Below, in pieces: positions 29,078 through 44,495 of a stretch of DNA of 45,030 nt (position 1 is the first letter of the stretch; the number at the start of each line of letters is the position of its first letter). The stretch lies in the IMG/VR virus record IMGVR_UViG_3300011442_000006, positions 1-45,030 of that record; one strand, 5' to 3'. This DNA is from a virus. Below the pieces are notes generated by a model, which was not told the origin of the DNA, did no database searches, and saw nothing but the letters and a program-made list of their open reading frames with translations. Made by a program: the position numbers and the translations under genes.

Positions 29078-29107
29078 CTGCTCACCTCGCCGCTCGGCAT
29101 TTTGCCG

Positions 29108-29116: not shown

Positions 29117-29123
29117 ATGTCCC

Positions 29124-31689: not shown

Positions 31690-31691
31690 CA

Positions 31692-32190: not shown

Positions 32191-33027
32191 ATGCCGTTCG
32201 GTGGCCTTCTTACGCTCGGTTTAATCGGCGGCGGCTCGTCGCTTTTTAGTGGCATATTGGGCTCTAAGGCGTCAGGGAAAGCTTCTCAGCAGCAAGGGGC
32301 CGCGGCTGACAAAGCGATCGACTTTCAAAAGGAAATCTACGGCGACCAGCGGCGAGACCAGCAACCCTATCAGGACCTCGGTACGGCGGCGATCGCTCAA
32401 CTGATGAAGCGTATCGGGATGGGAACGCCAGACTTTCAGACGCCAGACGATTTCAAGGGGCCAGACGATTTCACGGCGCCCTCTCTCGAGGAGGCCCGTA
32501 ACTCGCCTGGTTATCAGTTCGCAAAGCAAGAGGGAGAATCAAGCATAGTCAAGGGCCAGGCGGCGGCCGGCGGGGCGTTTACGGGCGGAACGTTGCGGGC
32601 TCTCGATTCGTTCGGGACCGGGCTTGCTGATTCGACCTATTCGAACGTCTTCAACCGGTCGCTATCGACGTACAAGCAAAACCTCGACAAAAACCTGGGG
32701 GTGTTTAATACCAACCTGAATAAGAACCTGGGCGGGTATCAGGCGAACCTGGCCGGCGACGCTCAGGAGTTTTCGCAACTACTCGCCCCGGCTCAACTGG
32801 GCGAGAACGCGACGGCGCAGATAGGAAACGTCGGTTCCCATGCGGCGACCAGTATTGCAGACTTAATGACGGGCAAGGGCAACGCCCAGGCGGCCGGCAC
32901 GGTCGGAAGCGCGAACGCATGGGGCGGGGCATTGAGCGGTCTCTCTCAGACGGCCAATGATACATTCCTACTCTCTGAGTTCATGAAGAGGAATAAGCAG
33001 CAAGCGCCCAAACTCGCGGCAGGGTAG
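32191..33027 (+). CDS. internal virion / ejection-type protein (278 aa)
   Basis: RBS GGGAGGAG. Gly-rich hydrophobic N-terminus. SPGYQFAKQEGESSIVKGQAAAGGAFTGGTLRAL is a block common in podovirus internal proteins. Confidence 0.55.
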   Translation: MPFGGLLTLGLIGGGSSLFSGILGSKASGKASQQQGAAADKAIDFQKEIYGDQRRDQQPYQDLGTAAIAQLMKRIGMGTPDFQTPDDFKGPDDFTAPSLEEARNSPGYQFAKQEGESSIVKGQAAAGGAFTGGTLRALDSFGTGLADSTYSNVFNRSLSTYKQNLDKNLGVFNTNLNKNLGGYQANLAGDAQEFSQLLAPAQLGENATAQIGNVGSHAATSIADLMTGKGNAQAAGTVGSANAWGGALSGLSQTANDTFLLSEFMKRNKQQAPKLAAG

Positions 33028-33033
33028 TAGAAT
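33025..33033 (+). promoter_or_regulatory. TAGTAGAAT box, 6 nt upstream of ATG 33040
   Basis: The stop codon TAG is fused to TAGAAT, followed by agcccc then ATG. Confidence 0.45.
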
Positions 33034-33039
33034 AGCCCC

Positions 33040-34689
33040 ATGCCCGGTATTGATGCAAGTATCCCGCTCCACGTCCAGCAACCTCAGGTACAAAGCCCAA
33101 TGCAATCGATTGGGCGGCTCATGCAGCTACAGGGGCAGATAGACGCACGGGCTCTCCATGCGGCTCAGATTCAAAACGAGCATATTCAGCAACAGGCTCA
33201 GCAGATCAAGCTCGATGAGGCAAAGCGGGAAGTCGGCGAGCAACAAACGTTCCAGGAAGCCTTGAAAGGCGGGCTCGGGTACGAGGGTACGTTGACGGAG
33301 CTCGAGAAAGCGGGCAAGGTTTCGCCGGCGTTTACCGTCAAGGCTCGCGAGAACTTCGCGAAGACGGTCAAAGAACGGGCCCTTGCCGGTTCCGCCGAGC
33401 TCGAGGGCCACAACAAGCGACTACAGACGCTGGGCGGGGGTCTCGCGGCGATCGAGCTCTTAGATCCGGCCGAGCGGCCCGGCGCCTTTAGTCAGTGGCG
33501 TACCCAGATGATCGCCGATCCAGATCTAGCGGAAGACGCGAAAAAGCTTCCTGAGCAATACAGCGACTCGCTCGCGAGCCGGGCGAAATGGATGGGAGGA
33601 CTAACCAAGGACATCAACGACGCGGCTATCAAGCTTCAAGGTGAGGAACGGGCGGCAGCGAAGGAAAAACGCGACGTTCAGTTATTCGCCGAGACTCTCA
33701 AAGAAAAGAAGGCCCAGGCGACGCACGCCGAGCAAGTCGCGGCCGGCACGGTTCCAGAAACGCCCGCTCAGAAGCAGGCTCATGAAGACGCTCAGAAAAC
33801 GCAAGACATCAAAGATTTCGAGTACTCGGTAAAGCAGGGGTACAAGGGCAACTTTGAGCAGTGGAAGACGACGGAAGCGAACCGGCGCCGTCCCATTACG
33901 CAAATTATCCAACCCCAGTACAAAGACGGTAAGCTTGTCGTATCGCCAACAGCGCAGATGGCGGCCGAGGGACGGCTTGACCCAGTCACCTTGCGGGCGG
34001 TCATTCGAAAGAATCCGACAATTGTCGCCGAGATCAAGCAGGCGGCCCCGGAATGGGATGAGGCCGATATCGAGAAGCGGTACGCGGTCGGGAAAGAGTT
34101 TAGTAGCACGTCGAACACGAAGGCGGGCGGCCAAGTCGTCGCTCTCAATACCCTGATCCATCACGCCGAGCTCTACCAGCAGGCGGCCGATGCTTTGAAA
34201 AACGGATCGTTCAAACCGGGTAACGCGGCGTACAATGCGGTCGCGAACCTCTTCGGCTCGGCGCCGCCTCAGAACGCGGCCCTGGTCGCGCGGTTCCTTG
34301 CTGGAGAGACGGGTAAGGTAGCCACGGGCGGTGTGCCTGCCGAGGGCGAAATCAAAGGCGTTCTGGCGAATCTGACGACAGACGCAAGCCCCGAGCAAAT
34401 CGCTGGCGCCGGAAAGACGCTGCTACAGATTGCGGCAGGCCGAGCCATTCCGCTCAAGGAAAAGCTCGTTGACGCCAAGCTTGAAAAGCAATACAAAATC
34501 TTGGGAGATGACGCCAAAGAGATCCTGGGGCGGCGGGGCTTTGATCCGGAGACCCTGAAACCTCGAGCGGCTACCGGCGCGGGCAGCGGTGGGGCCCCCG
34601 CGGGTAAGATCTACGCTCGAGATCCTCAGGGCCAGCGACACGAGGCGAAGGCCGGGACGCCACTACCGGTCGGCTGGAAGGCGGAATAA
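33040..34689 (+). CDS. internal virion / ejection-type protein, coiled-coil rich (549 aa)
   Basis: Gln/Ala/Lys/Glu-rich helical protein in the position of P22 gp20-like ejection proteins. Confidence 0.5.
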   Translation: MPGIDASIPLHVQQPQVQSPMQSIGRLMQLQGQIDARALHAAQIQNEHIQQQAQQIKLDEAKREVGEQQTFQEALKGGLGYEGTLTELEKAGKVSPAFTVKARENFAKTVKERALAGSAELEGHNKRLQTLGGGLAAIELLDPAERPGAFSQWRTQMIADPDLAEDAKKLPEQYSDSLASRAKWMGGLTKDINDAAIKLQGEERAAAKEKRDVQLFAETLKEKKAQATHAEQVAAGTVPETPAQKQAHEDAQKTQDIKDFEYSVKQGYKGNFEQWKTTEANRRRPITQIIQPQYKDGKLVVSPTAQMAAEGRLDPVTLRAVIRKNPTIVAEIKQAAPEWDEADIEKRYAVGKEFSSTSNTKAGGQVVALNTLIHHAELYQQAADALKNGSFKPGNAAYNAVANLFGSAPPQNAALVARFLAGETGKVATGGVPAEGEIKGVLANLTTDASPEQIAGAGKTLLQIAAGRAIPLKEKLVDAKLEKQYKILGDDAKEILGRRGFDPETLKPRAATGAGSGGAPAGKIYARDPQGQRHEAKAGTPLPVGWKAE

Positions 34690-36171
34690 ATGCCCGATGG
34701 ATGGGAGCCGGTAGCTGACACGTCCGCTTGGACGCCGGTAGACGACAAGCCAGGGCCTGGCCCGATCAAGCGTTTCCTCGAGCCGTTGAATCCGATGCCG
34801 TTGGTACACCGGCTTTTTGAGCCGAGCGGCAATCACGCCCTTGACCTGTCTGGATACACTCTCGGCAAGAACGTCTTAAAGCTGGTCGAAGATATGGGCA
34901 TGGCCCAGGTGGAAGAGGGTAAGGCGGCCGTCAAAGCTTTTCAGGATGGCGACCACACGACGGCGATCGCCCGGGGGCTCGCGGCATTAACGCCGGTGTT
35001 GGGGCCCATGTCTCAGCAGGCGGCCGACAAGTTCATAGCTGGCGATACTGCCGGCGGATTGGGCACGTTGACGGCGATGGCTCTCCCGGAAATCATCAAG
35101 GAAGCCCCCGGCGTCGCGAAAGCGGCCGGCAAGAGAGCGGCGGCGGTAGTCGAGAAGGTTAAGTCCGCGGAAGTTCCGCCGATCGTCGGGAAGATGATCG
35201 ACAAGTCGACTAACCGAATCCCTGGCGTCAAGGCGGTAAAGACCCTCTACCGGGCCGCGCAGGACTTCCAGGAAGCGCGGGCCGAGCAGGCAGCCGAGGT
35301 GGCCAAGACGGCAGCGGCGGCCCCGGTAGAGGCCCCGCGGCCAGCCCCTGTACGTCCTCCGCTCGCCGAGCCCAACCCGCTTCCCCCCGAGCAGCCCCCC
35401 GCCATGCCGCGGACCGGCCCGGTGCAACCTCCCCTCAAACCAGGGGGAAAAGTGAGCAGTGAGGCCCCGCAAGCCGTTGAATCGGTGGCCCCGGAAATTC
35501 CTCTCCGCGATCGCGTAACGTCAGAAGCGACGGTCCCCCCAGGTCCAGCGAGCCCGGCCGCAGAAGTTCCGCCGATCGCGAGCCCCGTCGAGCCTGTCGA
35601 GGCGGTACCTTCAGGCGGGCCCGTTAACTCTGGCGGGGCCGGATCCGTCGAAACTGGCGGGAGTACTCCCACGCCAAAGCCAGCGTTGAGTCCGGGAGCC
35701 CAGGCGGCGGCGGAAGCCCTTGGAGATCTCGGCACGTCGGATCTGAAGCCGGCCGAGGACTTTCCCGCTCCCGAGCATTACCAGAGCAAAGCCCAGATCG
35801 ACAAGGCCCGACGTGTCGCCGAGCAATTGAAGCAGCACGGCATCACCTCGGAAGATATGGCGTTGCTCGAGCACGATGATCCGGCATGGAACACGCTATT
35901 CGAAGGGCTCGGCGAAAACGGGCCCGGTAAGTTCTCGGGAGATCCGAAACAGACCGTCGCACAGACGTTGCTACACCTCCGGGAACTGGAGAAGATGGAC
36001 ACCCCCAAGGCGGCTCCCAATCCTATTGCCAAGTCCTCTACCGCCGTACTGGGCGAGCCTCGACCGATGAACCCAAAAGCGCAAGCGATTTCCGAAGAGT
36101 TGGCGGCGGCTCTCGATGAAGTCGACCCCGGTGTTGCTGCAGTCATGAAGAAGCGGCCCCGTAAAAAGTAA
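34690..36171 (+). CDS. internal virion / ejection-type protein, Pro/Ala-rich centre (493 aa)
   Basis: ATG directly follows the upstream TAA. Extreme-GC Pro/Ala low-complexity core at about 35280-35700. Confidence 0.5.
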   Translation: MPDGWEPVADTSAWTPVDDKPGPGPIKRFLEPLNPMPLVHRLFEPSGNHALDLSGYTLGKNVLKLVEDMGMAQVEEGKAAVKAFQDGDHTTAIARGLAALTPVLGPMSQQAADKFIAGDTAGGLGTLTAMALPEIIKEAPGVAKAAGKRAAAVVEKVKSAEVPPIVGKMIDKSTNRIPGVKAVKTLYRAAQDFQEARAEQAAEVAKTAAAAPVEAPRPAPVRPPLAEPNPLPPEQPPAMPRTGPVQPPLKPGGKVSSEAPQAVESVAPEIPLRDRVTSEATVPPGPASPAAEVPPIASPVEPVEAVPSGGPVNSGGAGSVETGGSTPTPKPALSPGAQAAAEALGDLGTSDLKPAEDFPAPEHYQSKAQIDKARRVAEQLKQHGITSEDMALLEHDDPAWNTLFEGLGENGPGKFSGDPKQTVAQTLLHLRELEKMDTPKAAPNPIAKSSTAVLGEPRPMNPKAQAISEELAAALDEVDPGVAAVMKKRPRKK

Positions 36172-36183
36172 GTACTGTGTGGG

Positions 36184-36192
36184 TGATATAAT
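36184..36192 (+). promoter_or_regulatory. Extended -10 box TGATATAAT, 7 nt upstream of ATG 36200
   Basis: TGATATAAT then cacccgc then ATG, with no SD. Confidence 0.55.
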
Positions 36193-36199
36193 CACCCGC

Positions 36200-36655
36200 A
36201 TGCGTACACTTCTGCTATTGCTCGGTCTCGGGCTCTCCCTCTTCGCCCAGGCCCCGCCCAATCGTTATTTCGTCTCGGCCTCGACGACAAAGGTTACTAT
36301 CCAGGAGCCTGCAAGCGGCGGGAACCAGGTGCAGGGGGAGCAAGCCTCGATCTATTGCGTGGCGGCTCAGACGGCGACCGAGGAATGGAACGGCGCTGCA
36401 GCCACGGCGACCACGGCGACGGTCAAGAAAGCGATTGGAACCTTCCAGCCCGCTTTGGCAACGGCATGGACCGCAAGTAACGTGGGTGGAGGCACTAGCG
36501 GGCCAGTTTACAACATCCCAGCCGGCGCGACGATCTTTCTCGATATCTCCCCTGTCCATCTTGGAACCACCGGAACGGGAACAAACTACAGTATCGGGAC
36601 AAGCGGAACCTGCACCATTACCATCTACTGGACCGAAGGATCGGGGAGGCGTTAA
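36200..36655 (+). CDS. protein with signal-peptide-like N-terminus (151 aa)
   Basis: MRTLLLLLGLGLSLFAQA|PPN. The mature part is Thr/Ala/Gly-rich. Confidence 0.6.
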   Translation: MRTLLLLLGLGLSLFAQAPPNRYFVSASTTKVTIQEPASGGNQVQGEQASIYCVAAQTATEEWNGAAATATTATVKKAIGTFQPALATAWTASNVGGGTSGPVYNIPAGATIFLDISPVHLGTTGTGTNYSIGTSGTCTITIYWTEGSGRR

Positions 36656-37993
36656 GTGTTAAAGCTGCTCGTGGTCGTTTTGCTATTCGCCGGTCCCCTT
36701 TTTCCCCAGGGGCTGTTGATGCCGGGGCCATTTATCGGAGGGGTAGGCGGGGGCGGGGGCGGCAGCGGTACAGTTACCAGCGTTTCGTTTACGGGAGGCT
36801 TGATCTCGGTAGCTAATCCCACCACAACGCCAGCGTTTACGGTTGCTGGAACAAGCGGCGGTGTGCCCTGTTTTACTAGTGCGTCTACATGGGCGTCCAG
36901 TTCCGCCCTAGCCGCCACGTCGCTAATGTTAGGAGGTGGCGCAGGTGTATGTCCATCGACCACGAGCACCGATCTTCAGTTCGCGAGCCATACTCTCACT
37001 CTAGGCTCAGCCGGAATCGTCGATGTTAGCCCTGGTAAGTTCGTTCTGCCATCCTCGGCGGCGGGGACCGGGATTACCCTGACGACGACGAGCGGAAGTA
37101 CGGTCATCTCGACAAATTCGGCGGCGTTGTCTGGGGCGATGCTTCTCGCGGGGAATAACACCACTTGGGTTCCAGGCGCGGGAGGGAACGTCTGTACCAA
37201 TAGCGCCACGACGCCATGTATTGTTCTGCCGGGGGCGGCGGTTCCAAATACGCCGATCGCTGGCGGGATCGGAATCAATAACGTGAGCCCGAACGGTTGG
37301 TTTTATTGGTACGGCGGAGCTGCATTTAAGTACGCGGTGGCGAGTGCGACTTCGACACAGGATTTGTCGGCGCTTGCGACCGGAGTTCTCCATAACACCA
37401 CCACAACGGGCGTTTTATCTAGTTCTGCTATTGTTAGCGCTGATCTGAGCATTACTGGAACCACCTGTACAAATCAATTTGTATCAGCTATTAGTTCATC
37501 AGCGGCGGGAACTTGTACGACGGTTACATTGGCGGGTGCCCAATTCGCCAATCAAGGCACAACGACCACGGTTCTTCATGGTAATGCCGCCGGTAACCCA
37601 TCGTTTGGGGCCATTGTCGCCGCTGATATTACGACAGCGACAATTACAGCCGCAAAGATGGCCGCTACCACGTTCGACTCTCAGACTGATGCTGCCACGA
37701 TCACATGGGCGATTGCTTCCGTGTTAAACGCACAGGCGACCGTTACTCTCGGTGGGAACCGAACGCTGAACATCACCAACCCAGTTGTCGGCGGAAACTA
37801 CGTTTTCAAAATTACCCAAGACGGTACAGGATCGCGCACGTTGACCAAGGGGTCTGGATGCACCTGGAAGGAGCTAGGCAGCAGCGCGGCGACATTTGGA
37901 CTCAGCACGGCAGCGAGCGCCATTGATGTTCTCACGTTTACATATGATGGAACGAATTGCCTAGCCAGCGTGGGTAAGGCTTACGGAGGTTAG
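36656..37993 (+). CDS. fibre-like protein with signal-peptide-like N-terminus (445 aa)
   Basis: GTG start directly after TAA. MLKLLVVVLLFAGPLFPQG, a Gly run, then VLHGNAAGNPSFGAIVAADI and a C-terminal ITQDGTGSRTLT... block like phage fibre tips. Confidence 0.6.
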   Translation: MLKLLVVVLLFAGPLFPQGLLMPGPFIGGVGGGGGGSGTVTSVSFTGGLISVANPTTTPAFTVAGTSGGVPCFTSASTWASSSALAATSLMLGGGAGVCPSTTSTDLQFASHTLTLGSAGIVDVSPGKFVLPSSAAGTGITLTTTSGSTVISTNSAALSGAMLLAGNNTTWVPGAGGNVCTNSATTPCIVLPGAAVPNTPIAGGIGINNVSPNGWFYWYGGAAFKYAVASATSTQDLSALATGVLHNTTTTGVLSSSAIVSADLSITGTTCTNQFVSAISSSAAGTCTTVTLAGAQFANQGTTTTVLHGNAAGNPSFGAIVAADITTATITAAKMAATTFDSQTDAATITWAIASVLNAQATVTLGGNRTLNITNPVVGGNYVFKITQDGTGSRTLTKGSGCTWKELGSSAATFGLSTAASAIDVLTFTYDGTNCLASVGKAYGG

Positions 37994-37994
37994 A

Positions 37995-38738
37995 ATGAGG
38001 CTACTTTTAGTCGGACTTCTTGTTACATCGTCGGCATTCGGACAAGCGTTGTTTAGGGCTCAAAACAAAACAGTAGCAAGTGCTGCTCCAGCTATCGTTC
38101 AGTCCGACGTCCGAGACAATGTATCGTGCAATGGGGCAAATACCAGCTCAGCAATTTGTTCCAACGCAATCAGCACTACCACTGGAAATCTAATTCACGT
38201 TTTCGGAGGAACCTCGTTAGGAAGTGGAACAATAGCTGTTTCTGATACCGCAGGGAACACCTATACCTGTGAAACTACCGCAACGCAAGCGACCTCAGAA
38301 GGTACCAGTTGTTACGCAAAAAACATCACAGGAAACGCAGCGAATGTTGTCAAGTTTGATTTTACAGATGTCAATACCTGTGGTCTAGCTTTGTGCGGGC
38401 TCGTAGTATATGAGATTGCGAATGCCAGCACATCAACTCCATTAGATGTTCATCAATCAAAGACAAATGCAGTTGGAGTAGGGACGCCTTGCCTGTCAGA
38501 CTCGTTCTCTACGGGTACCGCCAATGAAGTAATTACTATGAGTTGTTATACCGGCTATGATGGGTCCACGTTCTCGGCGGGAGCGATCACAGGTACAACT
38601 GGGACATTGAATGCAGGCGGCAACGATGCAATTGCGGGCGAGTATAGAGCAGTAACTAGTACGCAAAGTGGCACGGCGGCAATTGGACGCAGTAGTGGCG
38701 TTCCAGGTTCTATCAGTTTTGTGATGTCTTATAAATAG
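37995..38738 (+). CDS. protein with signal-peptide-like N-terminus (247 aa), lower-GC
   Basis: MRLLLVGLLVTSSAFGQA|LF. Thr/Ser/Gly/Cys-rich. The block VSDTAGNTYTC...CYAKNITG is lectin-like. Confidence 0.6.
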   Translation: MRLLLVGLLVTSSAFGQALFRAQNKTVASAAPAIVQSDVRDNVSCNGANTSSAICSNAISTTTGNLIHVFGGTSLGSGTIAVSDTAGNTYTCETTATQATSEGTSCYAKNITGNAANVVKFDFTDVNTCGLALCGLVVYEIANASTSTPLDVHQSKTNAVGVGTPCLSDSFSTGTANEVITMSCYTGYDGSTFSAGAITGTTGTLNAGGNDAIAGEYRAVTSTQSGTAAIGRSSGVPGSISFVMSYK

Positions 38739-38742
38739 TCTA

Positions 38743-41700
38743 ATGAAAACTTTAGTATTATTCTTCCTCTCCTATCCTCTTTTCGCGAATTACTCGGGCG
38801 GGATTTTCGTCGCGCTCGCTACTGGGAAAACAACCTACACGTTGACCAACAGCGGTCCTCAGGGCGGCGTCGAACAGCGGACGGCTGGTCTTGCGGCCTT
38901 CGGCGGGAGCTTCCAGCGAATCGGTGTCACGATCTCGATGGACCACATCTCGCTGCAAAATACGACCTCCTACACATCTTGCGCCGACCCATGCGGAGTT
39001 GGAGGGACGGCGGCGATGATGACGATCAATCGCCAGAAGGGTATCGTCTATGCGCGTTACGAGAAGCTCGACTCTTCTGGGAATCAACTTTTCCCGCGTC
39101 AGTATCTCGATGCCGGGTCTGCTTATGACAACAATACCTGCGCACCGCTCGATACATTTCCTCACATCTCCTATTCCACCGTCACCACGTCGCCGATGCC
39201 AATGCCGCTTGTCATGGTTTGGCACGATTGCTATGTAGGCCAGCTTCAGTTTCCACTCGTCAGCGGGCATGCGTTCGCAAGCCAGCGCTTATACGTTAGG
39301 ATTAGCAATCCTGGGTATAGCAATCCTAATCGACCGGATGGGAAATTCAGTTTCCAGATCAATGGAGGCGCATGGGTTCCATTGACGAACGCTGTCTGTA
39401 CTGGAGTAGACGCCTCGGCTGACTACGGAGGTATTGGTAGCTTCGATCAGACGCGGGAATTTACCTGCTCAATATCCGATGGGTCAATCCTAGTTGGAGA
39501 CACCACGATAACCATTGGAATTCGATTTAACGGTACAGATGGTATCACTTCGGGCGGGCGAATCCTGGCGATCAACATCATCGAAGCGAATGTGGCTTGC
39601 TCTTCGATCACTACTACTACCGGATCGCCCGCCTCTTCGGTTATTACGTGCGCAGGTCATGGATTCACGAACGGTAACGATTTTGTTGTTCTGCACGCCC
39701 CGGATATCTGGATGATGTACCATGGCCTGCGGCACTCGACGGCGGCGACATCCAGTACACTAACGTTTCGCCCATGTAATACCGGGAATCCATGGGATAC
39801 TGCATGCGTTCCGGCGAATGAGACAGTTGCGCCACCAGTCAGCACTGACCCAAGTGGCAATGCGATTACAGCAACGCGAGTGATGTATGTCGCCCGAGCT
39901 GCTATCGCGGCCTCTTCTTTCGTGCAGATAGACCCTACAACATGGACGGCCCCAGGCGGGGGTGACGCAACACGTGGAGGCAAGATATTCCGTACGGGTA
40001 ACGCATCCGGCACAACGGGCCAGTTCGATCAATTGATGAGCCCCAATACGCCATTCCTGAACGACAAATTTCACGTAGCCACGTGCGGCGGTCCCAATGG
40101 TTGTCACACCTCCGGCAATTCCACCGGCGTTCCATCGGGATCGGATTTGAAACGCTTCAACTACGACAATGGATCTATTGGGGTCCGCACGGAGTTTCAC
40201 GGCTTCTCGGAGCAGGACGGGCTCGATATCGAGGCTTATATTCGTGGGCTGAGCGTCACGGTCCCGGTCAACGGGCGTCCTTGGAATCCGCCTATGCAAC
40301 CATGCCCTGGCCTCTCCTCTGGTTCGACTGAGGATTTCTGGGCTGGTGGGGCTAGGGACTGTGTTCTAGAGTACGGGTACGCTGATTGGATCAAATACGC
40401 CGCGCCGGGGGGTGATAAATCTAAGTGGGTTTGGACGGAGAAGTTTGAGACTCGCGATGTGCCTACTATTTACCCGTTTCAAGATTGGAACAAAATGCTT
40501 CCGACACTTCACCCAGCGGATGCTTATCCTAACGGCGATTTTCTTTCCTCAACCCCCTTCACAACGCACCGCGACATCATGGACAATATGACGGAGAATA
40601 ACTTCTCGTCGTTTCAGTCCTACAACTATGGGCAGACCTGTGGCCCATATGTAACCTGGATGAACTCTCAGTACGTGTTCAATGGAACGACAGCCGGGGC
40701 CAACGGAACCGATACAGCAGCGGGTAATTGGTTTCCCGGCAATCTTGCCCAGATTCGTTACAGCGCTATGCAGTACTACTTCATCCGGCAGTACGATATC
40801 TCCGTGGATAAGCAGACCTTTCAGTTTGAAGGTCAACGTAATAATGCTGTTAATGGAGCATCCAATAATGTCAATTGGCCACACGCTACGGGATTTTCTG
40901 GTTTTGGGCTGTTCACCTGTATGGCCCCTCATAAAATCACCACAGCGGAACCTGCGAACCTGCGTAAGACGTGGCCCAATGATGGCTTGATAAAATCTTT
41001 CGATGCAACATCTAACTGGGCTTACGTAGGTAATACGGTCCTGTACTGCGGTGATGGATGGGATTCGGCTAATAGTCCATGTGACAACGCATATTTGAAC
41101 ACCTACACCGTGCGTATGGGTCAATATCGTCCTGGAGGGTACTTGACAACCTTCTTAGGATCGATGGTAGTGCCTCAGCAGGGGTCAGCAAGCAAATATT
41201 TCTTTCAATATCAGTTCAACGGGGCATTTACTACAAGCGACGGCACCCACTTAGTTTGGAGTTCCGGCGATCATTTTGATCCTTCCATGACTGGTCAGGT
41301 AGGGCTTTGGAACGGAGTAGCCGGAACAGCTACATATGTCGATTCTACGCACCTGACGACATCCGCGAGCACAACTACAGGGACTTATGCCATTAATAGC
41401 GGTGGGGCAGGTACGGATTATACCTCGGTCTGGAGTAAAACTCTGACTTATGATTTTCGCTATACCTACCCATGGTTCAGTTCGGCGGCATGGCTGCAAA
41501 ATACGATTGACTACTTAGGCAACATCAACGCGATTACCAGCGCCCACACCGTGGATTATTGGAACCGGGTGTTTACCAACTCTGGGGATGTGAGCCCGAA
41601 CGCCTCCGCTGCCTGGGGATTATCAAGCGGTGGCACAGCCCCAACGACGGCGATGCTTCTTACATTGTTCAAGGTTTGGTGTAATGGCGACTCGACCTGC

Positions 41701-42156
41701 AACACAGCCCTGACCACATACCTGGATTGGGCAAAGAGCATCACCCAGGCTGGATGGGCAGCGCATAATTTTGACAACGATATTGCAGCGGCGTCGAATG
41801 GGGCGGGAACTACCAATGGCGCGGCGACAACTACGGGAGACTTGACGGCGGGCAGCAATCGAACTATCACATTTGACACGATGGGCGGGCATACCGGCTG
41901 TCCTGCTGCGGCAAGTGCGACAACTGGCGTTCAGTTCACATTCTGGGGAGGAACTGGTAGTCCAGAATCCACTCGGCCTGTCGGGGGGACCTGCGCCTCT
42001 GCGGGCTCAGCCGGTACTCTCGTTTTCAATCTACGCTACAACCATACTGGGGCATGGAAGATCAGTTACGGCCTCGATATCGGTATCCCGCCTAATTATG
42101 ACTTCAATGGTCTTGGGACTGAGCCGAACTGGTGGGCTGGCTCGAACATGCTTTAA
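38743..42156 (+). CDS. giant protein with signal-peptide-like N-terminus, unknown function (1137 aa), lower-GC
   Basis: MKTLVLFFLSYPLFA|NYSGG. No family recognised. Aromatic, Asn/Thr/Gly-rich with many Cys. Confidence 0.65.
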   Translation: MKTLVLFFLSYPLFANYSGGIFVALATGKTTYTLTNSGPQGGVEQRTAGLAAFGGSFQRIGVTISMDHISLQNTTSYTSCADPCGVGGTAAMMTINRQKGIVYARYEKLDSSGNQLFPRQYLDAGSAYDNNTCAPLDTFPHISYSTVTTSPMPMPLVMVWHDCYVGQLQFPLVSGHAFASQRLYVRISNPGYSNPNRPDGKFSFQINGGAWVPLTNAVCTGVDASADYGGIGSFDQTREFTCSISDGSILVGDTTITIGIRFNGTDGITSGGRILAINIIEANVACSSITTTTGSPASSVITCAGHGFTNGNDFVVLHAPDIWMMYHGLRHSTAATSSTLTFRPCNTGNPWDTACVPANETVAPPVSTDPSGNAITATRVMYVARAAIAASSFVQIDPTTWTAPGGGDATRGGKIFRTGNASGTTGQFDQLMSPNTPFLNDKFHVATCGGPNGCHTSGNSTGVPSGSDLKRFNYDNGSIGVRTEFHGFSEQDGLDIEAYIRGLSVTVPVNGRPWNPPMQPCPGLSSGSTEDFWAGGARDCVLEYGYADWIKYAAPGGDKSKWVWTEKFETRDVPTIYPFQDWNKMLPTLHPADAYPNGDFLSSTPFTTHRDIMDNMTENNFSSFQSYNYGQTCGPYVTWMNSQYVFNGTTAGANGTDTAAGNWFPGNLAQIRYSAMQYYFIRQYDISVDKQTFQFEGQRNNAVNGASNNVNWPHATGFSGFGLFTCMAPHKITTAEPANLRKTWPNDGLIKSFDATSNWAYVGNTVLYCGDGWDSANSPCDNAYLNTYTVRMGQYRPGGYLTTFLGSMVVPQQGSASKYFFQYQFNGAFTTSDGTHLVWSSGDHFDPSMTGQVGLWNGVAGTATYVDSTHLTTSASTTTGTYAINSGGAGTDYTSVWSKTLTYDFRYTYPWFSSAAWLQNTIDYLGNINAITSAHTVDYWNRVFTNSGDVSPNASAAWGLSSGGTAPTTAMLLTLFKVWCNGDSTCNTALTTYLDWAKSITQAGWAAHNFDNDIAAASNGAGTTNGAATTTGDLTAGSNRTITFDTMGGHTGCPAAASATTGVQFTFWGGTGSPESTRPVGGTCASAGSAGTLVFNLRYNHTGAWKISYGLDIGIPPNYDFNGLGTEPNWWAGSNML

Positions 42157-42386: not shown

Positions 42387-42623
42387 ATGAAAAAAATAGC
42401 AATACTGCTGGGTGCGGGAATGGTACTAGCAGGGTGCAAAAGGGACCCGTACTTGGAGTGGCATCGGTTGCAGGCCGAGATCCAGGAAATCAACAATCGC
42501 GAGTCGATCAACTGCAAAAAGCAGGGCAAGGAATGGGGCATGGACCGTAACGGGTTCGGGCCGATATGCGTAACGGTCCAGACTCCTCCCGCTTCCACTC
42601 CAGCCCCGGAGGCGAAGAAGTGA
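42387..42623 (+). CDS. lipoprotein (78 aa)
   Basis: MKKIAILLGAGMVLAG|C lipobox. Pro/Thr-rich C-terminus. Confidence 0.65.
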   Translation: MKKIAILLGAGMVLAGCKRDPYLEWHRLQAEIQEINNRESINCKKQGKEWGMDRNGFGPICVTVQTPPASTPAPEAKK

Positions 42624-42865
42624 GCGCTTTGGCTACCACTAAGGGGCGGCACAGACACAACTGGCCACGGCAGTCAATAGATTTCGCTGATTCACAAACT
42701 ATAACCGTTGCCCCGTTTCGATCGAGTAAATTTCTAGCACTCGAAGTTGCGGTTCAAAAGGCTGAGCAGTATCGCGACCGCGAGTCCCATCAGGGCATGG
42801 TTCACGTCCTGATGGAGGAAGGTAAGCCTTATGACAAATGGATTCCGTATAACCGAGAATCATGA
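42620..42865 (+). CDS. hypothetical protein (81 aa)
   Basis: GTG 42620 overlaps the lipoprotein stop (GTGA), matching the coupling pattern used throughout this genome. Confidence 0.4.
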   Translation: MSALATTKGRHRHNWPRQSIDFADSQTITVAPFRSSKFLALEVAVQKAEQYRDRESHQGMVHVLMEEGKPYDKWIPYNRES

Positions 42866-43026
42866 TATCGTAGGACCGTTCCTTCAAGAAGGGGCTGGTA
42901 GCGACTAGCGGCGGTATCCAGTCCACCGCACGCGGCGATCATGTCACCATGAGAACCCGACACGAAGCCCCGGCCCTTTCCCGAACCTTCCTGATATAAT
43001 CACTCTGATTCAGTTAACATGTACTT

Positions 43027-43671
43027 GTGAACGCCCGAGCGAAACGCTTGATCGCCACCACTATATCTACGGAGATGTCAGTCTCCGCTAAACGATCGTT
43101 TACTTTCCTGATGACGCCCCCGCCTAGCTGGACGTTCGGCATCGCCACGCTTGGGGCGTTTTTCCTTTCCCTTCCTCAGTCCTACCGGCTGCTGTTGACG
43201 GTCATGCTGTTCAGCTTGGCAAGTAGCGGTCTCGTTGCATTGAAAAAGCACCGCATTAGCGCCTGGGATGCGTTCTGGAGCGTCGTGAGGGTCTTCGCTG
43301 AGGTGGGCCTGCTGTACATCACGCACTTAGTCTTTGACGGTTTCTCGAATCATTTCGGCGTGCCGATGGCGTCGACGGTGACGGCGATCGTGGCTCTAAT
43401 CTTTACGGGAATCGAGTTTCTGTCATTCACGGAAGATTGCAAGAACCTCGGTGTACCTGTTCCGAAGTTAGTCACCTCCCGAATGAAACAGTTCATGGAC
43501 AAGCTCGAGGCGGCCGGCGAAATGGAGCTCCAGACCCAAACGACAAAACTGTCACCAGCCGGAAACGTGTTAAGCGTTGAGCAGAGCGTTACCGTGTTGC
43601 GGCCGACCGGGCCGGCCCCAGAGGCCCCGATAGTGATCGCTCCCGACATAGTCGGCAAAAAGGAAGTGTAG
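43027..43671 (+). CDS. holin (phage_holin_4-like; 214 aa from GTG)
   Basis: 3-4 TM segments and FTGIEFLSFTEDCKNLGVPVPKLV, resembling the E..SI.EN....G.P.P signature of that holin family. A TGATATAAT box lies at 42992-43000. An alternative ATG is at 43075. Confidence 0.6.
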   Translation: MNARAKRLIATTISTEMSVSAKRSFTFLMTPPPSWTFGIATLGAFFLSLPQSYRLLLTVMLFSLASSGLVALKKHRISAWDAFWSVVRVFAEVGLLYITHLVFDGFSNHFGVPMASTVTAIVALIFTGIEFLSFTEDCKNLGVPVPKLVTSRMKQFMDKLEAAGEMELQTQTTKLSPAGNVLSVEQSVTVLRPTGPAPEAPIVIAPDIVGKKEV

Positions 43672-43673
43672 CC

Positions 43674-43886
43674 ATGTCGCCAGTTGTCAACTTTATCTTT
43701 ATCGCTCTTGTGATAGCCGTCATTTTGGGAGCTTTGAACAAGTTCCCGGAATTGCTCGACGCCACCACGGTTTCAGTGATTCGCTTTGTGCTGCTGGTGG
43801 TTCTCGGTATCCTGTTTATCGACGTGTTGCTCTGGATGTTCACCGGACAGCACATCACCCACTACACGGGCGGCGTCTACCGGTAA
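43674..43886 (+). CDS. small two-TM membrane protein (70 aa), holin/antiholin-like
   Basis: Two hydrophobic helices. ATG lies 2 nt after the holin stop. Confidence 0.55.
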   Translation: MSPVVNFIFIALVIAVILGALNKFPELLDATTVSVIRFVLLVVLGILFIDVLLWMFTGQHITHYTGGVYR

Positions 43887-43903
43887 AAGGCGCACCTTGG
43901 CAG

Positions 43904-44119
43904 TTGGCGTGCTACGATTGTGTCATGTTCGACCAAATCCGCGACGTTGCCGGCTCGCTAGGGATCAGGGACGGGCAACTTGTCAAACTTGCACGCGATA
44001 TTGCCCACGATGGCGCATTGCTCGATCTTGAGTACATGCGGGAAGCCGATGCGTTAGAACTGTTGGCTTTTCTTCGAAAAGCCCGGCTTTATGAAGCGCG
44101 TGAATTGATCCCAGCCTGA
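43904..44119 (+). CDS. hypothetical protein (71 aa)
   Basis: ORF track. Confidence 0.5.
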   Translation: MACYDCVMFDQIRDVAGSLGIRDGQLVKLARDIAHDGALLDLEYMREADALELLAFLRKARLYEARELIPA

Positions 44120-44123
44120 TAGA

Positions 44124-44495
44124 ATGGCCGTCATGTGGATATGGCGGCAGCGGTTGGGCGTTCTCTACCATAACGACGTCAAGCAGGGCGAGGGCTACAG
44201 CGGGGCCGGGGTCGACAAGAACCAGCCGGCGAGCCAAGAACTTAAGAACAAGGGCCCCATTCCGGCCGGCGTCTACGGGATCGGACCGCCACACAGGACG
44301 GACACGCACGGGGATCATGTCCTATCGCTTACTCCGTGGAAGCAAAATTACATGTTCGGCCGTGATGCGTTCCTGATCCATGGCGACTCGATCGCCGACC
44401 CTGGAACCGCGAGTGAGGGATGCGTCATTCTGTCTCGGGCTCTGCGAGAGCAAATCTCGAACAGTGGCGACACGGTACTTGTTGTACTCGCGTAA
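44124..44495 (+). CDS. DUF2778 / Tlde1-like L,D-transpeptidase-fold enzyme (123 aa); endolysin candidate
   Basis: GEGYSGAGVDKNQP...NKGPIPAGVYGIG...LTP...FGRDAFLIHGDS...ASEGCVILSRALREQISNSGDTVLVV matches the DUF2778 consensus, including the catalytic H...SxGC. The second ATG at 44133 is the leaderless start, 7 nt after TAGAAT. Confidence 0.8.
   Translation: MAVMWIWRQRLGVLYHNDVKQGEGYSGAGVDKNQPASQELKNKGPIPAGVYGIGPPHRTDTHGDHVLSLTPWKQNYMFGRDAFLIHGDSIADPGTASEGCVILSRALREQISNSGDTVLVVLA

What the first reader, a model, noticed from the sequence alone, without database searches (positions are those of the whole stretch)
36200..42156. Four consecutive phage proteins with Sec-type signal-peptide-like N-termini (6 kb)
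The N-termini read MRTLLLLLGLGLSLFAQA, MLKLLVVVLLFAGPLFPQG, MRLLLVGLLVTSSAFGQA and MKTLVLFFLSYPLFA. All have a basic n-region, a Leu-rich h-region and an A/G-x-A/Q cleavage-like site.

Virion parts assemble in the cytoplasm, so exported proteins are unexpected at the end of a tail/ejection module. Yet the second protein (36656-37993) has fibre-like blocks: VLHGNAAGNPSFGAIVAADI and a fibre-tip-like C-terminus.

Two readings are possible. The phage may encode a secreted or cell-surface set (surface remodelling, exclusion, decoy, biofilm matrix enzymes). Alternatively the hydrophobic N-termini may be a shared, undescribed virion-attachment or membrane-anchoring module. The unit starts with its own leaderless promoter (36184).
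Basis: partly seen in the sequence, partly recalled or inferred. Interest (0 to 1): 0.7.

Follow-up and report, generated by a model that had tools for sequence, protein, structure and literature searches.

The report
Exported fibre-like protein cassette in phage
An uncultured P22-like phage carries four neighbouring late genes whose products look like proteins exported from the cell (cleavable signal peptides, paired cysteines, one haem-type motif), including one built from tail-fibre parts; phage fibres are normally made inside the cell, so this recurring cassette is unusual and its job is unknown.

Summary
ORFs A (36200-36655), B (36656-37993), C (37995-38738) and D (38743-42156) all start with a classical n/h/c signal-peptide pattern. 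They are the only 4 of 60 + strand genes that do, and they are consecutive.

The signals look real and cleaved. They are kept in relatives: all 11 close D homologues, 137 of 150 A, and 81 of 120 B. Gln follows the predicted cleavage site in 85-89% of A and B relatives (13% in controls). Mature parts have an even cysteine count in 76/79 B and 129/137 A relatives, while relatives without the signal show roughly random parity. D has an invariant Cx(2/5)CH cytochrome-c-like motif and a Rhodothermus homologue carrying a T9SS sorting domain.

B is a mosaic of tail-fibre modules. Its tip domain carries a signal in Bacteroidota, Acidobacteriota, Verrucomicrobiota and Oligoflexales, but in none of about 40 Pseudomonadota, Actinomycetota or Saccharibacteria proteins. 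A conventional tailspike lies upstream (24924-27458).

Best reading: a mobile, late-expressed cassette of Sec-exported, disulfide-bonded glycan-binding or glycan-processing proteins that act outside the cytoplasm. Export is well supported; function is inferred. Attachment to virions after export is not excluded. The cassette recurs in other uncultured phages and is absent from isolated ones.

The parts
36181..36197 (+). Perfect 17-bp palindrome GGGTGAT-ATA-ATCACCC in the 28-nt gap between the last ejection gene and A. It overlaps the -10 element and could be an operator or a hairpin.
   Evidence: Read directly from the sequence. It is the only zero-mismatch copy in the window.
36184..36192 (+). 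Extended -10 promoter-like element TGATATAAT, 8 nt upstream of ATG 36200, which would give a leaderless or near-leaderless transcript.
   Evidence: Only 2 TGNTATAAT sites occur in 45 kb (0.44 expected). The second is the same 12-mer TGATATAATCAC at 42992, ahead of the holin. There is no -35 element and the motif is not conserved in relatives.
36200..36655 (+). Gene A, 151 aa: signal peptide (aa 1-16, predicted cleavage LFA|QA) followed by a compact beta-sandwich with one Cys pair (C53, C138).
   Evidence: The family has 273 representatives, 137 of 150 with a signal-like N-terminus and 116 of 137 with Gln at +1. Cys count is even in 129 of 137. The AF2 model has pLDDT 93.7, with helix 2-15 and a beta-sandwich that has no significant PDB match.
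36656..37993 (+). Gene B, 445 aa: signal peptide (about aa 1-19, cleavage site ambiguous), Gly-rich linker, fibre-like repeats and a tip domain; 8 Cys in 4 local pairs. No virion-docking N-domain is recognisable by eye, but none was searched for.
   Evidence: There are 1526 relatives sharing individual modules, 81 of 120 listed with a signal-like N-terminus. Gln at +1 in 70 of 79. Cys count is even in 76 of 79.
37439..37630 (+). B repeat module (about aa 262-325): ...TCTNQFVSAISS..GTCTTVTLAGAQFANQGTTTTVLHGNAAGNPSFGAIVAADI. It is present in 1-4 tandem copies in relatives.
   Evidence: Read from the sequences returned (for example P0015, P0017, P0018).
37655..37990 (+). B C-terminal tip domain (aa 334-445) with an invariant Cys pair.
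   Evidence: Alignment A2. The domain was found in 80 genome loci from many phyla. A signal-bearing N-terminus occurs only in Bacteroidota, Acidobacteriota, Verrucomicrobiota and Oligoflexales.
37995..38738 (+). Gene C, 247 aa: signal peptide (aa 1-16, predicted cleavage AFG|QA) and a beta-rich domain with 8 Cys. The protein in the same position in sister phage L099 is a Laminin_G_3 protein.
   Evidence: In family alignment A3, about half the members carry a signal and half start directly at the domain.
38743..42156 (+). Gene D, 1137 aa: signal peptide (aa 1-15, predicted cleavage LFA|NY), beta-rich N-terminal half, cytochrome-c-like segment, helical C-terminal half, 22 Cys, and a C-terminal W[KR]CSNM-type motif conserved in the family.
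   Evidence: All 11 close homologues are signal-bearing. Cys80/84 and Cys345/355 are lost in pairs. The AF2 model has pLDDT 65 and no significant fold match.
39949..40311 (+). Cytochrome-c-like segment of D (aa about 403-523): GDAxxGxxxF ... C448-x5-C454-H455 ... FH486G ... IEAYIRGL ... RPWNPP.
   Evidence: C448, C454, H455, F485 and H486 are invariant in 13 sequences; most have CxxCH, while the window and P0003 have Cx5CH. All 12 PDB sequences reached at E<=10 are c-type cytochromes, best E=0.35. Pfam hits to members are weak: PF13442 at 0.015 and PF00034 at 0.1.
24924..27458 (+). Context: a conventional pectate-lyase-type tailspike upstream, showing that the virion has a receptor-binding protein without a signal. 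The ORF could extend to ATG 24849 or TTG 24840, which would add a weak signal-like segment.
   Evidence: tblastn hits annotated 'colanidase', 'tail spike protein' and 'pectate lyase superfamily' begin at query residue about 34. Relatives L094 and L095 start directly at the domain.
32191..36171 (+). Context: three ejection-protein genes (32191-33027, 33040-34689, 34690-36171) immediately upstream of the cassette.
   Evidence: Only the first matches a family (phrog_598, 'DNA ejection'); the other two are assigned by position and by synteny with L001 and L099.
42387..44495 (+). Context: downstream lysis block. It holds a lipoprotein-like ORF (42387-42623, lipobox LAGC), a holin (43027-43671), a small membrane protein (43674-43886) and a Tlde1-domain protein (44124-44495).
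   Evidence: The Tlde1-domain protein is 56% identical to its counterpart in L099.

Best explanation
A-D are genuine Sec / signal-peptidase-I substrates that form a conserved, mobile accessory cassette transcribed late with the virion genes.

Proposed mechanism:
1. Each pre-protein is translocated across the inner membrane and its signal is cleaved. For A and C this exposes an N-terminal Gln.
2. In the periplasm, disulfide bonds form (1, 4, 4 and up to 11 pairs), and D may receive a c-type haem.
3. The mature proteins then act outside the cytoplasm on host surface glycans. They lack any recognisable outer-membrane sorting signal, so they probably accumulate in the periplasm or envelope and are released in folded form at lysis.

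The mature proteins are a small beta-sandwich (A), a fibre built from receptor-binding modules with a signal peptide where related fibres have their N-terminal domain (B), a small beta-rich and probably lectin-like protein (C), and a large multidomain protein with a cytochrome-c-like module (D).

Status of each step: the signal-peptide features, their conservation, the Gln at +1, the cysteine statistics, the CxxCH motif and the mosaic origin are shown. Cleavage and periplasmic folding are strongly inferred. The extracellular role (receptor masking or destruction, or matrix degradation that helps progeny) is inference.
For: 1. Classical n/h/c N-termini occur in only these 4 of 60 genes, and they are consecutive.
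2. The feature is conserved across families: D 11/11 close homologues, A 137/150, B 81/120.
3. Gln follows the predicted cleavage site in A 116/137 and B 70/79, against 13% in control windows. This matches the host-type Q-rule for SPI substrates (PMC5837995) and implies cleavage.
4. Mature parts have an even Cys count in B 76/79 (p=1e-19) and A 129/137 (p=1e-29). Relatives without a signal show 19/12, 4/8 and 5/8. In D, Cys80/84 and Cys345/355 are lost together. The cassette is 2.0% Cys against 0.92% for the structural module, and all four counts are even.
5. D has an invariant Cx(2/5)CH plus FH motif. All 12 PDB sequences reached by the core profile are c-type cytochromes. c-type haem is attached outside the cytoplasm (established knowledge).
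6. D's only named cellular homologue is a Rhodothermus marinus protein with an N-terminal signal-like segment and a T9SS sorting domain.
7. The same mature domains occur without the N-terminal segment in other phages, so the segment is an add-on rather than part of the fold.
8. A signal-free tailspike lies upstream.
9. The cassette sits at different places in different phage backbones: after the ejection genes, between terminase and portal, or among early-type genes. Its GC is lower (0.49-0.54 against 0.57-0.66).
10. Precedent: phage-encoded SPI proteins obeying the Q-rule in P. gingivalis phages (PMC10367356).
Against: - No dedicated signal-peptide predictor was available; the scorer is my own heuristic.
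- B's cleavage site is ambiguous (LFA|G, FP|QG or PQG|L).
- The window's D has Cx5CH instead of CxxCH. The Pfam cytochrome hits are below threshold, the PDB hits are individually non-significant, and Foldseek gave no cytochrome match.
- The cassette occupies the slot where P22-like phages keep their tailspike (my own knowledge of P22 gene order).
- In L099 the cassette is translationally coupled to the ejection genes, which fits virion proteins equally well.
- B and C are built from tail-fibre-type modules.
- No catalytic domain or function was identified for any of the four.
- The host is unknown.
Confidence: 0.5

Rival explanations
1. Periplasm-matured virion appendages. A-D, or B-D, are exported so they can acquire disulfides (and haem). 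They bind to otherwise complete P22-like particles only when the holin and endolysin mix cytoplasm and periplasm at lysis, so the last virion assembly step happens outside the cytoplasm.
For: All the evidence for export applies. The cassette lies after the ejection genes, where P22-like phages encode the tailspike (gene order from my own knowledge). It is translationally coupled to the structural operon in L099. B and C derive from tail-fibre modules with the mosaic evolution typical of receptor-binding proteins. Phage D proteins have an extra N-terminal domain (aa about 17-135) that is missing from the cellular homologue and could be a docking domain. P22 heads can be 'tailed' in vitro by adding tailspike (established knowledge), so attachment after lysis is physically plausible.
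Against: B has no recognisable docking domain after the signal, only a Gly-rich linker. A conventional signal-free tailspike already exists. The cassette also occurs far from tail genes in other backbones. Signal-bearing proteins with the same tip domain also appear to occur as ordinary chromosomal genes, judged from the N-terminal sequences of their neighbours only. I know of no precedent for this in tailed phages.
Confidence: 0.2
2. Prophage-expressed morons for superinfection exclusion or lysogenic conversion. The cassette is transcribed from its own promoter in lysogens and remodels or masks the cell surface, working like lambda Lom/Bor, P22 SieA/Gtr, T5 Llp or phi80 Cor.
For: The window has an extended -10 element inside a palindrome directly before A. 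The cassette has lower GC and sits at variable locations in other phages. The locus downstream of the ejection genes is where P22 carries sieA (locus position from my own knowledge); PMC10883804 shows SieA is a prophage-expressed inner-membrane exclusion protein. A receptor-binding-like protein could mask a receptor.
Against: No integrase or repressor was found among the 10 genes scanned with Pfam (nine of them early), and all genes are on one strand. The promoter-like element is shared with the lysis block, which suggests late timing, and it is absent in relatives. There is no terminator-like site after D and no PADLOC hit. Six kilobases of large structural-type proteins is atypical for exclusion genes.
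Confidence: 0.15
3. The hydrophobic N-termini are uncleaved and not used for export. They serve as a shared virion-attachment or membrane-tethering module for proteins assembled in the cytoplasm.
For: All four neighbouring proteins carry the segment. In L099 the A-like protein has a longer, anchor-like hydrophobic segment. Signal status is coordinated among neighbouring genes within a phage.
Against: The four segments share composition but not sequence. Their h-regions are 11-13 residues, too short for a membrane span. Gln at +1 is enriched to 85-89%. Even-Cys parity is tied to signal presence. The D family has a haem-c motif and a T9SS-secreted homologue. Homologous domains function without the segment in other phages.
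Confidence: 0.07
4. A chance or gene-calling artefact: hydrophobic N-termini produced by wrong start codons in a GC-rich genome.
For: One similar case does exist in this window. The tailspike ORF acquires a weak signal-like segment only if it is extended to an upstream start that overlaps another ORF.
Against: B and C have strong SD motifs at the right spacing, and their starts abut the preceding stops. An independent gene caller uses the same starts. The feature is conserved in hundreds of homologues from unrelated assemblies.
Confidence: 0.02

Closest known systems
Phage morons encoding exported envelope proteins (lambda Lom and Bor; P22 SieA and GtrABC downstream of gene 16; T5 Llp; phi80/N15 Cor)
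   Same: They are phage-encoded proteins that use the host export machinery. They are encoded at or next to the tail or ejection module, sometimes with their own promoter, and they act at the cell envelope rather than in the virion. PMC10883804 shows P22 SieA is a prophage-expressed inner-membrane exclusion protein; the other examples and the sieA locus position are from my own knowledge.
   Different: Those are single small proteins (a beta-barrel, lipoproteins or inner-membrane proteins) expressed from prophages. Here there are four co-linear proteins totalling about 2,000 aa, built from fibre, lectin-like and large multidomain modules, with no sequence similarity to any of them. The phage shows no lysogeny genes, and in a sister phage the cassette is fused to the late operon.
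Unknown-function Sec/SPI proteins obeying the Bacteroidetes Q-rule in Porphyromonas gingivalis phages (PMC10367356)
   Same: They are phage genes of unknown function with SPI signal peptides whose predicted cleavage exposes Gln. The authors interpret them as adaptation to host secretion with potential to modify the envelope.
   Different: No homology was tested or found. Those are prophages of an oral Bacteroidota species. The present cassette is a defined four-gene unit with fibre-derived members in soil- or water-type uncultured phages whose host is unknown. Shine-Dalgarno use (16 of 49 genes) argues against a typical Bacteroidota host.
Phage tail fibres and receptor-binding proteins
   Same: B shares its repeat module and C-terminal tip domain with proteins whose N-termini I read as canonical tail-fibre N-termini, on contigs assigned to many phyla. 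The C family occurs without a signal next to probable fibre genes in another phage type (L096). Both show module-swapping mosaicism.
   Different: A signal peptide stands where those relatives have their N-terminal domain. There is no Pfam or PHROG fibre family match. Absence of signal peptides is normally taken as a mark of genuine phage virion receptor-binding proteins (PMC6199706).
Rhodothermus marinus T9SS type A sorting-domain protein (P0012) and class I c-type cytochromes
   Same: D aligns with P0012 over the beta-sandwich, the Cx2CH segment and the helical region (E=2e-17). The motif order GDxxxG..F / CxxCH / ..AAYIRxL resembles class I cytochromes c, and only cytochromes are reached in the PDB.
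   Different: Phage D proteins lack the T9SS C-terminal domain and have two extra N-terminal inserts. The window's copy has Cx5CH. The cytochrome assignment is below the curated thresholds.
SAR endolysins and filamentous-phage coat proteins
   Same: They are phage proteins that deliberately use Sec export. Filamentous-phage coat proteins are virion proteins with cleaved signals. Both points are from my own knowledge.
   Different: SAR domains are weakly hydrophobic, uncleaved and attached to muralytic enzymes. Filamentous phages assemble at the membrane. This is a tailed, P22-like, holin-lysing phage, and A-D have Leu-rich, cleavable-type signals.

Membership tests
Sec / signal peptidase I signal peptide (A-D) | Positively charged n-region within the first residues | tested here: met
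   MR-, MLK-, MR- and MK- respectively; net charge +1 in all four.
Sec / signal peptidase I signal peptide (A-D) | Uninterrupted hydrophobic h-region of about 7-15 residues, shorter than a membrane span | tested here: met
   The h-regions are 11-13 residues and Leu/Val/Phe-rich (and direct reading).
Sec / signal peptidase I signal peptide (A-D) | Small neutral residues at -3 and -1 of a c-region cleavage site, with no Pro at +1 | tested here: inconclusive
   -1 is small in A (LFA|Q), C (AFG|Q) and D (LFA|N), but -3 is Leu in A and D (tolerated, not small). B is ambiguous (LFA|G, FP|QG or PQG|L) (direct reading).
Sec / signal peptidase I signal peptide (A-D) | Feature conserved in homologues, with evidence of selection at the new N-terminus | tested here: met
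   D 11/11 close homologues, A 137/150, B 81/120. Gln at +1 is 85-89% in A and B against 13% in controls.
Sec / signal peptidase I signal peptide (A-D) | Call by a trained predictor (SignalP or DeepTMHMM) and experimental cleavage or export | not testable with these tools
Disulfide-bonded extracytoplasmic proteins | Even number of, and co-varying, cysteines in the mature chain | tested here: met
   Window proteins have 2, 8, 8 and 22 Cys. Families: B 76/79 and A 129/137 even, with roughly random parity in relatives without a signal. Paired loss occurs in D.
c-type cytochrome domain (D) | CxxCH haem-attachment motif | tested here: inconclusive
   Cys, Cys and His are invariant in 13 sequences. 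Eleven have CxxCH, but the window and P0003 have Cx5CH.
c-type cytochrome domain (D) | Match to a curated cytochrome c family above threshold | tested here: not met
   The window's D has no Pfam hit. Family members reach only PF13442 at E=0.015 and PF00034 at E=0.1, both below the cut-offs. The PDB profile hits are all cytochromes, but with E of 0.35 or worse.
c-type cytochrome domain (D) | Cytochrome c fold around the motif | tested here: inconclusive
   The AF2 model has pLDDT 70-85 in this region. Whole-chain Foldseek returned no cytochrome among the 50 matches listed. A domain-only search was not run.
Phage tail fibre / receptor-binding protein (B) | Shares fibre shaft or tip modules with proteins that have tail-fibre-type N-termini | tested here: met
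   The tip domain was found in 80 genome loci. Pseudomonadota and Actinomycetota copies have N-termini that I read as canonical tail-fibre N-termini; prophage context was not checked. Repeats are shared with 1526 proteins.
Phage tail fibre / receptor-binding protein (B) | N-terminal virion-docking domain | not tested
   By eye, the signal peptide is followed directly by a Gly-rich linker (QGLLMPGPFIGGVGGGGGGSG) and then the fibre repeats. No search for a docking domain was run.
Phage tail fibre / receptor-binding protein (B) | Match to a curated tail-fibre family (Pfam, PHROG or NCBIfam) | tested here: not met
   No hit in any library. In GenBank phages there is only one short tip-domain hit, annotated as hypothetical.
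Moron (independent accessory transcription unit) | Own promoter upstream and terminator downstream | tested here: inconclusive
   An extended -10 element is present in the window, but there is no -35 and no terminator-like site after D. The promoter is absent in L099, where the cassette is coupled to the upstream gene.
Moron (independent accessory transcription unit) | Composition differing from flanking genes, and variable presence or position among related phages | tested here: met
   GC is 0.49-0.54 across C-D against 0.57-0.66 upstream. The cassette or parts of it lie at three different genomic positions in different backbones.
Known anti-phage or superinfection-exclusion proteins | Similarity to a described defence or exclusion family | tested here: not met
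   There are no PADLOC hits for A-D or the downstream lipoprotein.
Concanavalin/LamG-like lectin (C) | Match to Laminin_G_3 or a related family | tested here: not met
   The window's C has no Pfam hit and the family profile has no meaningful PDB hit. Only the non-homologous protein at the same position in L099 carries PF13385.

The most novel reading that the evidence does not exclude
The receptor-binding appendages of a tailed phage are matured outside the cytoplasm. B-D, with A as a helper, are Sec-exported, disulfide-bonded and possibly haem-loaded in the periplasm. They dock onto finished P22-like particles only when lysis mixes the compartments. This would be a compartmentalised final assembly step that lets phages of certain phyla (Bacteroidota, Acidobacteriota, Verrucomicrobiota) use oxidatively folded, host-surface-protein-like fibres.
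Probability: 0.17. Interest if true: 0.9.

Novelty: new variant of a known kind. Interest (0 to 1): 0.6.

Why it matters
Tailed-phage fibres and spikes are assumed to fold and assemble in the cytoplasm, and the absence of a signal peptide is even used to separate phage receptor-binding proteins from bacterial surface proteins (PMC6199706).

Here a conserved cassette puts cleavable signal peptides on proteins built from fibre modules. Three independent statistics indicate real export: conservation of the signal, Gln at +1, and cysteine parity. The families are large (over 1,500 B relatives and about 270 A representatives), and the signal on B's tip domain depends on host phylum. They are essentially absent from about 50,000 isolated phage genomes.

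If the proteins are free exported factors, they are a new class of late accessory functions acting on the host surface or matrix. If they join the virion after export, that would be a new assembly route.

In either case the finding bears on annotation practice: signal-bearing fibre-like genes in viromes should not automatically be labelled tail fibres, nor be excluded as bacterial. It also gives a concrete test system, for example PhoA fusions, virion against periplasm proteomics, and haem staining of D.

Tried and rejected
- **Family assignment.** Pfam, PHROG, NCBIfam and PADLOC scans of A-D gave nothing. PDB sequence searches with the D, C and B-tip profiles gave nothing significant.
- **Structure.** The whole-chain AF2 model of D (pLDDT 65), searched with Foldseek against the PDB and BFVD, had no match below E=0.01. 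A was modelled at pLDDT 93.7 but has no significant structural neighbour, so the fold gives no functional clue.
- **Host identification.** There is no nucleotide match in GenBank phages. The portal is only 29% identical to P22-like Vibrio and Shewanella phages. No tRNA genes were found. Cluster look-ups returned no organism names. The genome scan with the B tip domain hit many phyla. Shine-Dalgarno use is moderate, while Gln at +1 points to Bacteroidota-like secretion, so the clues conflict and the host stays unknown.
- **A shared 'PGP' motif after the signal.** I considered this as a common docking signal and rejected it, since only 8 of 79 B relatives have it.
- **The apparent conserved N-terminus of C between the window and L099.** I rejected this as functional evidence. 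It is contiguous with the 92%-identical 3' end of B, so it is simply one recombination block.
- **A fifth signal-bearing protein, the tailspike at 24840.** Probably an artefact of the most upstream start.
- **The TGATATAATCAC element as a conserved cassette promoter.** Rejected, because it is absent from all 99 related loci.
- **Literature.** Searches found no description of signal-bearing fibre cassettes in tailed phages.

Full report
**1. What is there**

The window is an almost complete 45-kb genome of an uncultured P22-like podovirus-type phage; the source contig is 45,084 bp. All recognisable genes are on the + strand:
- large terminase at 11809, portal at 15860, scaffold at 18129 and major capsid protein at 19239;
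- a gp10-type 'Hc3' protein at 27434 and an ejection protein at 32191, followed by two further genes assigned as ejection genes by position and synteny.

The closest isolated phages share only 29% portal identity. There is no nucleotide match in GenBank phages.

Directly after the last ejection gene come the four ORFs of the finding:

| ORF | Coordinates | Length | Start codon context |
|---|---|---|---|
| A | 36200-36655 | 151 aa | ATG 36200; an in-frame GTG also lies at 36179 |
| B | 36656-37993 | 445 aa | GTG abutting A's stop, GGGGAGG upstream |
| C | 37995-38738 | 247 aa | ATG, GGAGG upstream |
| D | 38743-42156 | 1137 aa | ATG, 4 nt after C's stop |

An independent gene caller uses the same starts. 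A lysis block follows: a lipoprotein-like ORF, a PF05105 holin, a small membrane protein and a Tlde1-domain protein.

**2.

No SignalP was available, so I wrote a heuristic n/h/c-region scorer. It gives A-D scores of 4.1-4.8, and none of the other 56 + strand genes exceeds 3.05. The h-regions are 11-13 residues long, which is signal-peptide length rather than membrane-span length.

The feature is conserved in relatives:
- all 11 close homologues of D begin MKTxxLLLxxxPLLA|N or similar;
- 137 of 150 representatives of the A family have it;
- 81 of 120 listed B relatives have it, and many of the rest look like fragments or have other N-termini;
- about half of the C family has it.

**3. Evidence that the signals are used and cleaved**

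(a) *Gln at +1.* Gln follows the predicted cleavage site in 116/137 A and 70/79 B relatives, against 13% in control windows from the same proteins. In the window this reads LFA|QA for A and AFG|QA for C. It is the pattern described as the Bacteroidetes Q-rule for signal peptidase I substrates (PMC5837995). Selection on the residue that becomes the new N-terminus only makes sense if cleavage happens.

(b) *Cysteine parity.* The mature parts of signal-bearing relatives have an even number of cysteines in 76/79 (B, p=1e-19) and 129/137 (A, p=1e-29). Full-length relatives without a signal have roughly random parity (19/12, 4/8 and 5/8). In D, Cys80/84 and Cys345/355 are lost together in the same homologues. 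The window's proteins have 2, 8, 8 and 22 Cys, mostly in local pairs, at 2.0% against 0.92% in the structural module. This is the signature of disulfide-bonded extracytoplasmic proteins, and it tracks the signal.

(c) *A haem-c-type motif in D.* The family has an invariant Cys-x(2 or 5)-Cys-His followed by an invariant Phe-His. These sit in a segment that reads like a class I cytochrome c: GDAxxGxxLF ... CxxCH ... AAYIRGL. A profile of this core reaches 12 PDB sequences at E<=10, and all 12 are c-type cytochromes. Each hit is weak, Pfam hits are below threshold, and the window's copy has Cx5CH, so I treat this as supportive only. c-type haem attachment is an extracytoplasmic process (established knowledge).

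(d) *A secreted cellular homologue.* The only named homologue of D is a Rhodothermus marinus protein with an N-terminal signal-like segment and a T9SS sorting domain.

(e) *The segment is an add-on.* C-family members without it start exactly at the conserved domain. P0050 is a signal peptide followed by the same N-terminal domain that begins P0091.

**4. What the proteins are**

*A* is a small beta-sandwich. Its AF2 model has pLDDT 93.7, with helix 2-15 spanning the signal segment. It has no significant structural neighbour.

*B* is a mosaic fibre. After the signal comes a Gly-rich linker, then shaft segments, a TCTNQF...HGNAAGNPSFG repeat that is tandemly multiplied in relatives, and a 112-aa tip domain. 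A genome scan with the tip domain returned 80 loci from many phyla. The N-terminus depends on phylum:
- signal-bearing versions occur in Bacteroidota (about 12 loci), Acidobacteriota, Verrucomicrobiota and Oligoflexales;
- none of about 40 proteins from Pseudomonadota, Actinomycetota or Saccharibacteria has one; many of those start with N-termini that I read as classical tail-fibre N-termini.

In long Acidobacteriota and Chitinophagaceae contigs, the signal-bearing versions sit next to other signal-bearing proteins and genes that look like housekeeping genes, so they appear to be chromosomal surface proteins. This rests on reading neighbour N-termini only.

*C* is a beta-rich protein with 8 Cys. 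In sister phage L099 the protein in the same slot is an unrelated Laminin_G_3 protein, also signal-bearing.

*D* has a beta-rich N-terminal half, the cytochrome-c-like segment and a helical C-terminal half. The model has pLDDT 65 and no significant fold match.

None of the four matches Pfam, PHROG, NCBIfam or PADLOC. Apart from one short tip-domain hit, none has a relative in 50,697 GenBank phage records.

**5. Context that bears on the mechanism**

The cassette is syntenic in two other P22-like contigs:
- L099 has ejection genes followed by A-like, B-like, LamG and D-like genes;
- L001 has ejection genes followed by B-like, C-like and D-like genes.

Parts of it occur elsewhere in other backbones:
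- between the lambda-type terminase and portal in L002;
- among small early-type genes in a 76-kb phage;
- next to other large signal-bearing proteins in several IMG/VR contigs.

In L096, a phage with an SU10-type portal, the C-like protein and its neighbours all lack signals. Signal status therefore seems coordinated within a phage.

The window phage also has a signal-free pectate-lyase-type tailspike at 24924-27458. Its apparent signal-like extension depends on an upstream start that overlaps another ORF, and relatives lack it. ORF 29593-31263 may be a further fibre.

GC drops to 0.49-0.54 across C-D, against 0.57-0.66 upstream. No integrase or repressor was found among the 10 genes scanned with Pfam, nine of them early.

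**6. The promoter claim**

TGATATAAT (an extended -10) lies at 36184-36192, inside the perfect palindrome GGGTGATATAATCACCC and 8 nt before ATG 36200. Only two TGNTATAAT sites occur in the window (0.44 expected). Both are TGATATAATCAC in + strand intergenic gaps, the second before the holin.

This is suggestive of a shared, probably late, promoter type. However, the motif is absent from all 99 related loci, and in L099 the A-like gene overlaps the stop of the last ejection gene. An own promoter is therefore not a defining feature of the cassette.

**7. Interpretation**

I regard export as well supported (about 0.75-0.8). What the exported proteins do is inferred.

*Best explanation (0.5 as a whole).* This is a late accessory cassette of disulfide-bonded glycan-binding or glycan-processing proteins, derived from receptor-binding modules. 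They fold in the periplasm and act on the host envelope or matrix, being released at lysis. Possible roles are receptor masking or destruction that protects progeny, as T5 Llp does (my own knowledge), or matrix degradation.

*Main rival (0.2).* The same exported proteins bind to finished particles at lysis. The cassette occupies the slot where P22-like phages keep their tailspike, and P22 heads can be 'tailed' in vitro (both from my own knowledge). Against it, B has no recognisable docking domain, a normal tailspike exists, the cassette's position varies, and what appear to be chromosomal bacterial homologues exist.

*Other rivals.* A prophage-expressed exclusion or conversion role (0.15) is weakened by the lack of lysogeny genes and by coupling to the late operon. 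An uncleaved virion-attachment module (0.07) conflicts with points 3a-e. A gene-calling artefact (0.02) is excluded by conservation.

**8. Comparison with known systems and novelty**

Exported phage-encoded proteins near tail genes are known: lambda Lom and Bor, P22 SieA and Gtr, T5 Llp and phi80 Cor. PMC10883804 shows P22 SieA is a prophage-expressed inner-membrane exclusion protein; the rest is from my own knowledge. P. gingivalis phages were noted to encode unknown SPI proteins that obey the Q-rule (PMC10367356). The bare fact of phage signal peptides is therefore not new.

What is not described, as far as the literature searches show, is a conserved multi-gene cassette in which fibre-type modules carry cleavable signals. 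Nor are the statistical evidence of export, the phylum-dependent distribution, and the association with a large cytochrome-c-motif protein. I rate it a new variant of a known kind, with a minority reading (periplasmic maturation of virion appendages) that would be categorically new.

**9. Limits**

- The signal-peptide scoring is my own heuristic.
- The host is unknown, and the clues conflict: moderate Shine-Dalgarno use against Q-rule-like signals.
- D's haem domain is unproven.
- No function is assigned to any of the four proteins.
- Virion association cannot be decided computationally.

Noticed in passing
window 21238-21726 (-), 24295-24903 (+), 29040-29492 (+): Three ORFs inside the structural module read like HNH-type homing endonucleases (for example ...DHLCRRRHCVNPNHLEP......HRCDMRRCVRFSHLF......GHHEDYRFPFVVTWLCQKHH...). 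One is on the opposite strand, and one overlaps the 5' end of the tailspike ORF. This is based on motif reading only; NCBIfam gave no hit for 24295-24903.
   Followed up: partly
window 36184-36195 and 42992-43003: The 12-mer TGATATAATCAC (extended -10 type) occurs exactly twice. Both copies are in + strand intergenic gaps, ahead of the cassette and ahead of the holin, which may mark a phage-specific late promoter type. The first copy lies within a perfect 17-bp palindrome (36181-36197).
   Followed up: partly
window 24840-24924: The tailspike ORF can be extended upstream (ATG 24849, with GGAGG 11 nt before it) to give MQTRIYGSVVKAAQVLTLMVFAGRVMA|QP, a weak signal-like segment with Gln at +1. 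Relatives start at the conserved domain, so ATG 24924 is more likely, but the alternative is not excluded.
   Followed up: partly
window 42387-42623: A 78-aa ORF has a lipoprotein-type N-terminus (MKKIAILLGAGMVLAG|C) between D and the holin. It could be an o-spanin or a Cor/Llp-like exclusion lipoprotein. No partner i-spanin was recognised, and there is no PADLOC hit.
   Followed up: partly
window 44124-44495; L099 20256-20681: A Tlde1-domain protein (PF10908, an L,D-transpeptidase-like fold; phrog_24118) sits where an endolysin would be expected. It is 56% identical in the sister phage, and no conventional lysozyme or amidase was seen in the window.
   Followed up: no
window 38001-42000: GC falls to 0.49-0.54 across genes C and D, against 0.57-0.66 in the ejection genes just upstream. 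This is consistent with horizontal acquisition of that part of the cassette.
   Followed up: no
window 42085-42156 (C-terminus of D) and homologues P0001-P0010: D-family proteins end in a conserved W[KR]C[ST]NM[F] motif at or within a few residues of the C-terminus (NWWAGSNML in the window). Its function is unknown, and it is absent from the Rhodothermus homologue, which instead carries a T9SS domain.
   Followed up: no
P0050 versus P0091 (B relatives): The same N-terminal domain (ADRVRETSTTTGTGTLTL...) begins one protein directly and is preceded by a signal peptide in another. This is a clear case of a signal being gained or lost on a fibre-type protein.
   Followed up: no
L014, L017, L019, L023, L025 (Bacteroidota MAG contigs): Very large (1,400-1,700 aa) signal-bearing proteins starting MKKVIFSLALFLTCSLLAVAQKGISYQAVILDP... 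carry the same C-terminal tip domain as B. In L093 and L046, similar proteins lie beside genes that look like housekeeping genes, so these phyla seem to have chromosomal secreted proteins built from phage-fibre modules.
   Followed up: partly
window 10250-10825 and 4275-4733; 31617-32186: There is a Mom-family protein (PF25680, a DNA-modification type) and a hexapeptide-repeat transferase among the early genes. A GNAT-like acetyltransferase ORF sits inside the tail and ejection module and is conserved at the same position in L099 (PF13302).
   Followed up: no
L099 9444-10004: The A-like protein of the sister phage has a longer hydrophobic N-terminal segment (MTMKKLALKVPFVPILMLLAVVLTIVYEEK). 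It looks like an uncleaved signal anchor rather than a cleavable signal, so some family members may be membrane-tethered.
   Followed up: no
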